In this document: positions 57,963 to 63,620 of the stretch, piece by piece
Layout of the letters: the number at the start of each line of letters is the position of its first letter
Position numbering within the stretch: position 1 is the stretch's first letter
DNA from: Stylophora pistillata
Lineage: Eukaryota
NCBI RefSeq assembly: GCF_002571385.2
Contig: NW_019217955.1
Coordinates: 181,384-245,383, forward strand
DNA length: 64,000 nucleotides
Direction: 5' to 3'
The notes under the pieces: generated by a model
Database searches by the model: none
What the model was told of the DNA's origin: nothing
What the model saw: the letters and a program-made list of their open reading frames with translations, nothing else
Program-made: the position numbers and the translations under genes

Positions 57963-58650
57963 ATGGAAACATTTAAGATTAAAAAAAATTGCATATAATA
58001 TAGAAAAACTGTGTGAAAGAAATGTTCATCTCGGACTGATAAAAAATGATTACGATATTTTTGGGAAAATTATAATACAAAGGGAAAGAAATATAAAGAT
58101 TGAATCTTCAGAGGAAACTTTTGAATGTGATGAGAATGTTTATCTTTGTTTGTTAGATGTTGGGCTGATTGTTTGTTTTGCATGAAAACTGATTGAGCCT
58201 GTAAAAAATAAAGGACTTTGCTGCTATAAGAATAATATTGAGTTTATCAATAATGAATTCGTTTGTCTGAGATGTGGGTTTGTCGAAGATTGGAAACCAG
58301 TGGATGAATTCATTGACTATCACGATAATAAAGATAGATTTCGCAAACAGTATATCAGCGCAAGTACCACATTAGGAGACTAATTATAGCTATAGAAGGT
58401 AAGCATAAATTTTAGATACATCCAAATGTTATAGAAAGCGTAAACAGAGTATTTGAAGAGCTTGATAGTATAAAAAATAGGAAGAAAAAGTGGTAAATAT
58501 AAAATTTATAAGTAAGAAGTTATTCTCTTTGATGGATATCAAAGTGAACATAGAAAAACTCAATCCAAGAGAACATTGAAAAGATATGAAAAGTTCTGGA
58601 GACAAGCATTGGTTGAAAAAGGAGAAGAAATTAAGAAGATTCTTACATGA
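57963..58650 (+). pseudogene. VLTF3 (poxvirus A2)-like Zn-ribbon late transcription factor remnant
   Basis: Across frameshifts: LCC...FVCLRCG...VYQRKYH...RKKKVVNIKFISKKLFSLMD...QSKRTLKRYEKFW. Confidence 0.5.
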
Positions 58651-59127
58651 ATTTCTTTCTATATTCTTTTTCAAATTTATCAGTTATTGGACACATATCA
58701 ATTATTATATCATCGAGTACTTTGAGATTGTCCAACAATTTTGTGTTGTTAAATTTAGTGCCTCTCGTGAAGAACTGTATTTCATGCAGAGTTATTTCAT
58801 ATGATATGAAGGCAAACCTAAACATTTCAATTTTTTTTTTTGAAGTTTTTAACTTCTGAGAAGATGTTCAACAATACACCAGCTCATGATATGGTTCCGA
58901 GTACAATTGGGTTCAAGATTACACCTCCTACTAAGGTACCTTCAACAACCAAGAAAGCAGATCCAATTGTGCGTGAAAGGTACTGAGTTTTGAGGTATTT
59001 ATAGGCCCTTTTAAAATGCCTGTATTTTTTGTGACGAACGGTACAATTCTCCTAATTTTTTTTTGTGGTTTCATTCAATGATTTATCAGTGGTTGAAACT
59101 GATGATACTTCGTTTCTTAAAACTCAT
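58643..59127 (-). pseudogene. Polinton-type small membrane protein remnant
   Basis: HKKYRHFKRAYKYL...SAFLVVEGTLVGGVILNPIVLGTIS*AGVLL...KNFKKKIEMFRFAF...IIDMCP...YRKKFM*. Its stop overlaps the convergent VLTF3-like gene. Confidence 0.5.
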
Positions 59128-59149
59128 AAATTAATTGGTTAGATTATTT

Positions 59150-59700
59150 ATGCAAGCCTCAATAATGTAAAGTTTGCGAATTCTCTGCCACTAAGTTGGC
59201 CATTTTCTGTTGCGAGTGATATACAGTCAGAAGTGATTGTATTTAGCAAGAAAAGTGGTACAAAAAATTGCCATTTCAGTACTGCTTGTATCACCGAGTT
59301 TTATAATTTTGATATAATCAGTTAATGCACTATTTTTATCATATTTATATTATCTGAATTCTGTTCAGGAAGGTCCTTTATAATTATCAGAATAACTGAT
59401 TAAGTATATCCCGGCAGTTTTTACTTTTAAAGTTTTGAAACCTCCACTACGTGAGAGCATTTTGAAATGTCTAATACTTGAAATAATAATAGGAGCACTT
59501 TTGAAGTTGACAATTTTGACATTATTGTGATCTAATTCATGTACATATTTATAAATTTCGTGTTTTTTTCGAATCAACATATGTTAATTGACGGCGTGAT
59601 TGTCATCTGTTGGTGTTGCGATATTAACTATTTCATATGTTTTATGTACAGTATCATTGTTGATAACATAAATTTATTCTGTTGTCTCACGACAAAGTCA
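59150..59700 (-). pseudogene. Fibre/spike-like viral protein remnant
   Basis: IVNIATPTDDNHAVN-(frameshift)-YVDSK matches the IxNxxxPxxxxDAxNKxYVD fibre neck motif; followed by beta-rich LKVKTAGIYLISY. Confidence 0.4.
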
Positions 59701-59702
59701 CC

Positions 59703-62400: not shown

Positions 62401-62590
62401 GTGAATTTATTTTTCACATTCATTGCGACCCAATGTGTGCCTGCATCAACTTTGTCATCCAGATTTATCACATAATAGCCCTTTTTGATTGGTTCTTTCA
62501 ATATCTCATCTCTTGAAAGCATCTTATTAAAGTTCTTCACTTTCGTGCATTTGATCTAGTTCAATGTGTCAAAGTTTGATATCGCTTTAT
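62401..62590 (-). pseudogene. Adenain-like cysteine (maturation) protease, N-terminal half
   Basis: ISNFD...LSRDE...GYYVINLDDKVDAGTHWVAM (catalytic His motif GTHW); cut by the Penelope insertion before the expected YFDSFG motif. Confidence 0.8.
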
Positions 62591-63394
62591 TTACAAAATG
62601 GCTCCAAGAACAGGGACTCCATTGAACGGACTATTTTTTTTCTAGCAGCAGCCCTTGTCTCTTTTTTGTTGAAGGTCTTTTTTTTACCTGTACCTCTTCC
62701 AACAGTTGCATCTTTCCAACTACCAATGAATGGAGGCGGTCTGTAAAGCATCATTTTGATTGTATACACGATTCTGCAATCCACCATCAGATGCTGATAT
62801 CAAAGGAGGAGGAGCTCATGGTGCACTTGTACGTGATCTGTTCTGCATGCCTTTTCCTGCCAGCATATTCATCAAATGAGATATACCAATTCTGGCCAAT
62901 ATAGTGCCAATAGTACCACCTCTCTGTGTATTTGTTGATGCTCTTATATCGATCAAGTTGATCTTTTTCATTCTGTGGAATTAAAAAGCCTCCTGTCTGC
63001 CCTGCCCAAGTATCTTGTCCATTCCAAAGTTTCCAAGATTTGTCAATGCACCTGTGGCAAGACCAGGTAGCATCTTGGTTGCAAGTTTAGTTGCCATTGG
63101 AAGAACTTTAGGCGCAAGAACAATCAGACTACTGAAAAGTGAGCCTCCTTCTTTCACCACACGTCTTATCTGTGCTTTGCTGATCTTTAGATCAACACCT
63201 TTTCCTTCTCTTTTGGCTTTCTGAATTTTTTGTACTTGTGTTTTGGTCAGTAATAATTCATCTTGACCATTCAAATAATTTTTTCCCAATCTGAGAATAA
63301 TGGCTGAATTATTCTTGATAGCTCTCGCAAGATTTTGTTTCTGATCATTGCTCAGTTTAACGGAATGATTGAATAGCTCTGTCATATCTTCCAT
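62591..63394 (-). pseudogene. Basic virion core-like precursor (adenovirus pVII/pX-like) with protease-type cleavage motifs; frameshifted
   Basis: K-rich N-terminus; KEGGSLF, ILGQG, QRGGTIGTILARIGI, LAGKG; C-terminus YRPPPFIGSW...GLLLEKNSPFNGVPVLGAIL*. Confidence 0.65.
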
Positions 63395-63479
63395 ATATAC
63401 GTTACATTAATAACATATATGGGCTATGCGTGAAAAATAATCTCATCATACCTTTGTCAATTATTATGAGGTTGTTGAT

Positions 63480-63620
63480 TTATGCTCTCAGTAATGCTTT
63501 TCCACTTACCACATCAACAGATAGTTCTTCCTCATGTAGCATCAATGCGTACAGATTATAATCAGAACCTGCAGCCCCACTCAGTGTGTAATCAATGAAC
63601 CAGGCCGCTGTTGTATTCTG
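63480..63620 (-). pseudogene. C-terminal fragment of a Polinton/adintovirus-like major capsid protein
   Basis: FIDYTLSGAAGSDYNLYALMLHEEELSVDVVSGKALLRA* has the terminal beta-strand pattern of a double-jelly-roll capsid protein and lies directly upstream of the core and protease genes. Confidence 0.55.

What the first reader, a model, noticed from the sequence alone, without database searches (positions are those of the whole stretch)
57963..63620. Fossil Polinton/adintovirus-like virus retaining its virion-morphogenesis gene order
Seen: six tightly packed intronless gene remnants. On the minus strand they run capsid-like C-terminus > core-like precursor > GTHW cysteine protease > (Penelope insertion) > fibre-like > membrane protein, met by a convergent plus-strand Zn-ribbon gene whose stop overlaps the last of them (58643-58650). 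Established: Polintons/adintoviruses encode a double-jelly-roll capsid protein, an adenain-like protease and core proteins. Inference: this is an endogenised anthozoan dsDNA virus lineage, and intact relatives may exist elsewhere in the genome. No pPolB, integrase, ATPase or TIR is visible here.
Basis: partly seen in the sequence, partly recalled or inferred. Interest (0 to 1): 0.75.

Follow-up and report, generated by a model that had tools for sequence, protein, structure and literature searches.

The report
Broken Polinton virus remnant in coral
This is a broken leftover of a Polinton-type DNA virus in what is likely a stony coral's genome, cut in two by a retrotransposon and likely dead; such remnants are already known in large numbers from corals, so it is ordinary.

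Summary
Six broken, intronless viral gene remnants are present at the stated coordinates, with the 8-nt stop overlap. The right block (capsid tail > core-like gene > protease front half) is Polinton-type. That order recurs in 21 of 47 fetched relatives, several of which carry the double-jelly-roll capsid, integrase, pPolB or ATPase. The claim of a retained gene order fails across the Penelope-like insertion. The protease's catalytic half is missing from the window, there is no target-site duplication, and in 18 of 19 informative relatives another gene (DUF5679) follows the protease. No fetched Polinton locus matched it. The only locus found with the membrane gene looks like a giant-virus piece. 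The left block is one unbranched contig in two laid runs (no copies at 85% or more) and had no RNA reads in one run. Coral polintoviruses, including ones with VLTF3, are already published. Verdict: a real but ordinary decayed remnant.

The parts
63480..63635 (-). Last 40-50 codons of a double-jelly-roll major capsid gene; the rest is cut off by a high-copy repeat that starts near 63637
   Evidence: Profile of relatives' capsids matches positions 375-414 of 415, iE 5e-7; alignment; relative L030 capsid hits Pfam DJR-like 1e-16; L004 model hits DJR capsids; depth jump
62594..63391 (-). Core-like basic protein gene (intact relatives 250-290 aa, 15-16% K+R, repeated GG[F/S] motifs), broken by several frame breaks and an internal loss
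   Evidence: 61 homologues; 43 loci; P0078 aligns over the whole length at 42%, E 5e-50, and motif counts; no solved-structure relative; 'core' role inferred from position and motifs
62409..62600 (-). N-terminal 63 codons of an adenain-like (clan CE) cysteine protease, through GTHWV; one in-frame stop; Asp and Cys region missing
   Evidence: (S273R 3.6e-9, adenain 1e-4)
59694..62408 (-). Penelope-like retroelement: one 802-codon frame with four in-frame stops, and an inverted copy of its 3' end at 62099-62408; no target-site duplication
   Evidence: weak RT-family hits at the YVDD region, E 1e-4; GIY-YIG motif recognised by eye (recalled); high copy depth at its ends
59148..59693 (-). Broken fibre-like gene with one degenerate copy of a phage-tail-fibre-like repeat near 59625; its start is cut by the insertion
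   Evidence: Repeat profile scores 6.3 bits here against 0.9-5.8 as best in 20 shuffled windows; such repeats in L044 and L054 hit tail-fibre families; no direct homologue: weak
58643..59075 (-). Broken SLATT-like membrane protein gene (about 150 codons; a stop near 58884, a frame break near 58850)
   Evidence: P0062 57%, L091; for these relatives NCBIfam SLATT_4 E 0.004, Pfam SLATT_1 E 0.085, Atlas SLATT-named clusters 0.94-0.95, top Foldseek hit a Klosneuvirus SLATT protein, E 0.085; hydrophobic stretch
57963..58650 (+). Broken short VLTF3-like (late transcription factor) gene with a Cys cluster; its stop overlaps that of the membrane gene
   Evidence: Pfam Pox_VLTF3 E 0.001, 19.3 bits against cut-off 25, profile positions 3-42 of 168; 29% over 35 aa to the L091 VLTF3; no homologue among longer proteins
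57540..57963 (+).
   Evidence: TAATG stop/start overlap; inside the single-copy contig; no family hit
55500..57210 (.). Unrelated high-copy host repeat that bounds the remnant on the left
   Evidence: Summed contig depth 4000-14000 against 26 over the left block in run X1

Best explanation
The stretch is a broken remnant of a Polinton-type virus (polintovirus) that likely entered a coral's germ line through its own integrase, and both blocks likely come from that one element, brought together by a deletion at the Penelope-like insertion. Shown: the capsid tail, core-like gene and protease front half are homologous to, and in the same order as, genes of Polintons that carry integrase, pPolB and ATPase; every gene long enough to judge is broken; the protease stops exactly at the insertion, and its catalytic half is gone; other repeats cut both ends. 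Inferred for the living virus, by analogy with adenovirus and PMC8502044: the double-jelly-roll protein built the capsid, the basic GG-motif protein packed the DNA and was cut by the protease during maturation, the fibre bound cells, VLTF3 drove late transcription, and the SLATT-like protein formed a membrane pore for exit or defence. Today the remnant likely does nothing.
For: Order capsid > core > protease in 21 of 47 core-bearing loci; 30 show capsid > core and 32 core > protease, most others end early. L010 and L030 add penton, integrase and pPolB; L035 and L037 add an A32 ATPase. The window's core gene falls in a 57-row clade (99/91) with these. For one element: capsid, core, protease, fibre and membrane genes share a strand; L054 has ATPase > penton > core > protease > fibre-repeat gene; the window's own sub-branch (P0002, P0003, P0005, P0009/P0010; an open fork) has no fetched locus, so its order is unseen; VLTF3 is reported in coral polintoviruses (PMC11131425); SLATT labels stand beside the Hydra and Stylophora adintovirus maps (PMC8502044 supplement text layer); an inverted end copy is the usual form of a single Penelope insertion (PMC3846280 passages); the G+C gap between blocks (0.31 against 0.39) matches the gap between core and other genes inside single relatives (0.37 against 0.30-0.35). 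For dead: no RNA reads on 57488-59475 and at most 0.26 depth on 62600-63451 in one run.
Against: 18 of 19 relatives with sequence behind the protease continue with DUF5679, mostly then PLA2 and integrase, not fibre. None of 90 loci matched fibre, membrane or VLTF3 pieces at E<=0.05. The only locus with the membrane gene, L091, carries a giant-virus-type VLTF3 and no Polinton gene. No target-site duplication. No laid contig spans the insertion and no listed joint skips it, though 47 joints were not shown. The loci come from a handful of assemblies and are not independent. The RNA test is 6% of one run.
Confidence: 0.65

Rival explanations
1. Two unrelated viral remnants side by side: a Polinton virion module on the right, and on the left a piece of a different endogenous virus (giant-virus-like or another Polinton-like group), joined by a deletion between two opposite Penelope copies or by tandem integration.
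For: No fetched Polinton locus holds the left-block genes; the membrane gene's only locus is giant-virus-like; no target-site duplication; the inverted arms differ by about 10% and a 28-nt indel; tandem integration of polintons and PLVs is reported in anemones (bioRxiv 10.64898/2026.10.13.758929, passage).
Against: Same strand across the junction; precedent for protease > fibre in L054; the window's VLTF3 is short and only weakly like that of L091; G+C gives no support; other copies of the retroelement differ by about 11-13%, so 10% between arms fits simple ageing.
Confidence: 0.28
2. The genes are intact or domesticated in the animal, and the breaks are sequencing or assembly errors.
For: Tight stop overlaps are preserved; PMC11131425 notes that short-read assemblies can add frameshifts.
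Against: Contigs of runs X1 and X7 match 57355-59722 with 0 differences and no gaps, and the right block with 1 difference; no RNA on the left block; the capsid is about 90% missing.
Confidence: 0.03
3. The stretch comes from a contaminating or symbiont virus, not the coral germ line.
For: Homologous DNA turns up in bacterial bins (4 loci) and metagenomes, so mixing of sources does occur in these collections.
Against: The window carries animal genes (HMG box, TGF-beta); host repeats flank and interrupt the remnant; it is at flat depth in two runs labelled as the host organism and present with small differences in a third sample.
Confidence: 0.04

Closest known systems
Stony-coral polintoviruses (class Polintoviricetes; Stephens et al. 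2024, PMC11131425; abstract, section 5 part 1, sections 6 and 8 read)
   Same: Host group; double-jelly-roll capsid and protease; VLTF3 as an accessory gene; capsid hits outside complete elements are common.
   Different: This copy has about 10% of the capsid gene, half the protease and no pPolB, integrase, ATPase, penton or terminal repeats; it would fail that paper's three-gene filter.
Adintoviruses with a Beta-class virion module (Starrett et al. 2021, PMC8502044; parts 1-2 and section 10 of the text, and the text layer of Supplementary Fig. S2)
   Same: Relatives show penton > small basic gene > hexon > core-like gene > adenain; the paper lists Cupiennin and GasderminX (with a pX-like end) as Beta-module genes, and SLATT labels stand beside two cnidarian maps.
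   Different: No gasdermin or pX homology was detected for the core-like gene, so equating it with GasderminX rests on position only. The figure itself was not seen.
SLATT-domain proteins of polinton-like and giant viruses (PMC8502044 Fig. 6 legend; bioRxiv 10.64898/2026.06.19.733378 and 10.64898/2026.10.13.758929, passages)
   Same: Helical hairpin with a hydrophobic middle; weak profile, feature and fold hits to SLATT families.
   Different: All profile scores are below curated cut-offs, and they were obtained with the relatives L091 and P0062, not the broken window gene.
Penelope-like retroelements with an inverted pLTR (PMC3846280, passages)
   Same: Single long frame, inverted copy of the 3' end at the other side.
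   Different: No target-site duplication here; flanking DNA is lost.

Membership tests
Polinton/Maverick/adintovirus (Polintoviricetes), as a complete element | Double-jelly-roll major capsid gene | tested here: met
   C-terminal piece only; tied to relatives' capsids, which hit Pfam DJR-like and DJR folds (model pLDDT 54, TM-scores about 0.2)
Polinton/Maverick/adintovirus (Polintoviricetes), as a complete element | Adenain-like maturation protease | tested here: met
   Front half with GTHWV; family profile hits S273R and adenain; catalytic Cys region absent
Polinton/Maverick/adintovirus (Polintoviricetes), as a complete element | Protein-primed DNA polymerase B | tested here: not met
   No tblastn hit in the window with two relatives' pPolB; present in relatives L010 and L030
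Polinton/Maverick/adintovirus (Polintoviricetes), as a complete element | rve integrase | tested here: not met
   No hit in the window; present in relatives
Polinton/Maverick/adintovirus (Polintoviricetes), as a complete element | A32-like packaging ATPase and penton | tested here: not met
   No ATPase hit; one 31-aa penton hit at E 0.009, 19 kb away, taken as chance
Polinton/Maverick/adintovirus (Polintoviricetes), as a complete element | Terminal inverted repeats with a 6-bp target-site duplication | tested here: not met
   No match over 10 nt between the two edges; both edges are other repeats. It is therefore filed as a Polinton-derived fragment, not as a complete Polinton
VLTF3 (PF04947) | Pfam score above the curated cut-off | tested here: inconclusive
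   19.3 bits against 25 on a 54-aa piece, E 0.001, 1 of 19 pieces scanned
SLATT domain | Profile score above cut-off | tested here: inconclusive
   Relative L091: 13.3 against 26.3, 16.9 against 55; P0062 no Pfam hit; feature and fold hits point the same way
SLATT domain | Two membrane helices followed by a helical region | tested here: inconclusive
   Model of L091: long helices 11-58 and 74-113 around a low-confidence hydrophobic turn
Penelope-like elements | One frame with RT and C-terminal GIY-YIG nuclease | tested here: inconclusive
   RT-type hits E 1e-4 to 3e-4; no Pfam RT or GIY-YIG hit; no relevant solved structure; motifs recognised by eye
Penelope-like elements | pLTR copy, often inverted | tested here: met
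   Arms 59694-59975 and 62099-62408, 89-90% complementary
GasderminX / pX-like core protein | Homology to the gasdermin C-terminal domain or adenovirus pX | tested here: inconclusive
   No hit by HMMER in Pfam or PDB; the profile-profile library search used in the paper is not available here

The most novel reading that the evidence does not exclude
The remnant records a coral Polinton sub-lineage that replaced the usual DUF5679/PLA2 genes behind the protease with a fibre > SLATT >< VLTF3 cassette and traded its SLATT pore gene with coral-associated giant viruses (69% nucleotide identity to a gene next to a giant-virus-type VLTF3 in L091). That would point to co-infection and a virophage-like life for some animal Polintons.
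Probability: 0.12. Interest if true: 0.45.

Novelty: new member of a known kind. Interest (0 to 1): 0.14.

Why it matters
Little on its own: it is one more decayed piece of a virus group that is known from 30 coral genomes. It is a useful caution that gene order read across a retroelement can be false synteny, because the junction here hides a deletion. The one lead worth a cheap follow-up is the SLATT-like gene shared with a giant-virus-like contig, which would bear on whether animal Polintons interact with giant viruses.

Tried and rejected
No host genome is held, so no genome-wide search for intact copies was possible. VLTF3-like piece: no homologue among longer proteins (0 of 137 candidates); a degenerate motif pattern found 0 matches in viral contigs. 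Fibre-like piece: 0 hits among 1.84 billion representatives, none in Pfam or PHROGs, only E 4 hits in phages. Core-like gene: no relative in viral contigs; no solved-structure relative. Membrane gene: no Atlas hit for the window piece; no viral contig with the window piece or the alignment. HNH reading of the seventh ORF: no profile support, and the best phage hit (E 0.09) has no family, so it stays a guess. Capsid of L004: no PDB hit by sequence and no Pfam hit; support came through L030 and the fold search. G+C difference between blocks as a sign of two origins: rejected. Earlier scan notes: nothing found. Loci L056-L086 (31 distant protease loci) were left out of the gene-order table.

Full report
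Observation. The convergent stops overlap by 8 nt at 58643-58650. A seventh broken ORF lies upstream, and its stop overlaps the next start as TAATG at 57961-57965. The stretch falls into a right block (62409-63635), a retroelement (59694-62408) and a left block (about 57355-59693). High-copy repeats bound it below about 57210 and above about 63637.

Host. No genome is held. Of 24 runs listed, 18 hold the stretch or part of it; they are labelled as one coded organism, as metagenomes, or as coral metagenomes. The one named protein among 61 homologues of the core-like gene is from Pocillopora meandrina. The window also carries HMG-box, TGF-beta and amine-oxidase genes. A stony coral host is likely.

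Right block. The core-like piece found 61 homologues among 87 candidates and 43 loci among 100 candidate stretches in metagenome contigs. Among the 47 loci with the core-like gene, 30 have a capsid gene upstream, 32 a protease downstream and 21 both; most of the rest are short contigs. These loci come from a handful of assemblies and are not independent. The longer ones are Polintons: DJR-like capsid (L030, E 1e-16), rve integrase, pPolB, A32 ATPase and PLA2 by Pfam. A model of the L004 capsid (pLDDT 54) matches iridovirus, mavirus, PBCV-1 and other double-jelly-roll capsids at E about 1e-8, with low TM-scores. The protease profile hits ASFV S273R (3.6e-9) and adenain (1e-4). Profiles built without the window rows find only positions 375-414 of 415 of the capsid and 2-67 of 150 of the protease in the whole window. 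So about 90% of the capsid gene and the catalytic half of the protease are gone. In a tree of 67 core proteins the window row sits in a supported 57-row clade, on an open fork with proteins for which no DNA context was available. The 'core' role is inferred from basic composition, repeated GG motifs and position before the protease; HMMER found no link to gasdermin or adenovirus pX.

The insertion. It is one 802-codon frame with four stops, with weak RT-type hits and an inverted copy of its 3' end, 89-90% complementary. This form is described as typical of Penelope elements, usually with an 8-10 bp target-site duplication and sometimes without (PMC3846280, passages). Here there is none. The protease ends at one arm, and different, unrelated coding sequence starts at the other. 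The junction is therefore a deletion of unknown size. Of the 32 loci with core > protease, 18 continue with DUF5679, 13 end, and 1 (L054) continues with a fibre-repeat gene. The six-gene order is not shown to be original.

Left block. None of 90 loci matched the fibre, membrane or VLTF3 pieces. The 'Zn-ribbon' gene has a Pfam VLTF3 hit at E 0.001, below cut-off. The membrane gene has two clear relatives: P0062 (57%, 1 of 3 candidates) and L091 (69% nt over 398 nt). Four weak lines on these relatives point to a SLATT domain; each is below a curated or firm threshold. In L091 the gene converges on an unnamed ORF and a full giant-virus-type VLTF3 (E 2e-38), with no Polinton gene in its 2217 nt. 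The fibre reading rests on one degenerate repeat. A profile from 15 repeats in 8 loci scores 6.3 bits at 59625, the best in the window, against 0.9-5.8 in 20 shuffles; the pattern that picked the repeats was written with the window in view, so this is weak. The repeat proteins of L044 and L054 hit phage tail-fibre families. G+C differs between blocks (0.31 and 0.39), but single relatives show the same gap between core and other genes.

Copy number and expression. Four runs were laid at 85% likeness. In X1 and X7 the left block is one unbranched 2368-nt contig with 0 differences, at the lowest and flattest depth of the stretch. X8, from another study, holds pieces with 4 differences in 330 nt and 1 in 383 nt. 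X1 may be the window's source. The breaks are thus real, and the left block has no close copies in these runs. The right block shows modest extra depth at 62600-63167, which suggests short matches to related copies. The RNA run X22 (about 6% read) gave no reads on 57488-59475 and at most 0.26 depth on 62600-63451.

How it works. Best reading (0.65): one Polinton-type provirus that decayed, lost its ends to other repeats and lost its middle at the Penelope-like insertion. The functions of the original genes are inferred by analogy. Main rival (0.28): two different viral remnants joined at that insertion.

What is known. PMC11131425 (abstract, section 5 part 1, sections 6 and 8) reports polintoviruses in 30 stony-coral genomes, up to 1724 per genome, more capsid hits than whole elements, and VLTF3 as an accessory gene. 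PMC8502044 (parts 1-2, section 10, passages, supplement text layer) describes the virion modules and degraded germ-line copies, and carries SLATT and VLTF labels; its map figures and slide files could not be seen and may show the exact gene order in Stylophora. Two preprints (passages only; supplements closed) list SLATT and VLTF3 among genes of these viruses. PMC11071308 (passages) defines Polintons by pPolB, integrase, protease, ATPase and two capsid proteins. I did not search for a paper on this particular locus. The scan's own notes held nothing.

Verdict. A real, decayed, Polinton-derived fragment of a well-known kind. It fails the membership tests for a complete Polinton and is filed as a fragment. 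Interest 0.14.

Noticed in passing
L091:1-2065: A short viral-collection contig joins a close relative of the window's membrane gene to a giant-virus-type VLTF3 gene and a second ORF that looks like a giant-virus core gene (recalled, no family hit); three short repeats lie between them.
   Followed up: partly
L087-L090: Coral-type Polinton genes sit on short contigs inside four bacterial metagenome-assembled genomes, most likely host DNA binned by mistake.
   Followed up: no
L032:947-1759 and L033:743-1555: The core-like gene appears twice in tandem between capsid and protease.
   Followed up: no
L035:2660-3184: A Polinton relative has a different hydrophobic membrane-type gene right behind the core-like gene; weak RTX N-terminal hit, E 0.004.
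   Followed up: no
window 53623-54167 and 55226-55427: 27-nt tandem repeat, about 19 units, with open frames on both strands.
   Followed up: no
window 13342-14076, 23268-23705, 42491-46012: Host genes: an intronless HMG-box (Sox-like) gene, a TGF-beta family domain and a flavin amine oxidase.
   Followed up: partly
window 39291-40377: Remnants that look like a second Penelope-like element by eye; no family hit.
   Followed up: no
window 55500-57210: A very high-copy repeat that is also transcribed (RNA depth up to about 50 in run X22); not identified.
   Followed up: no
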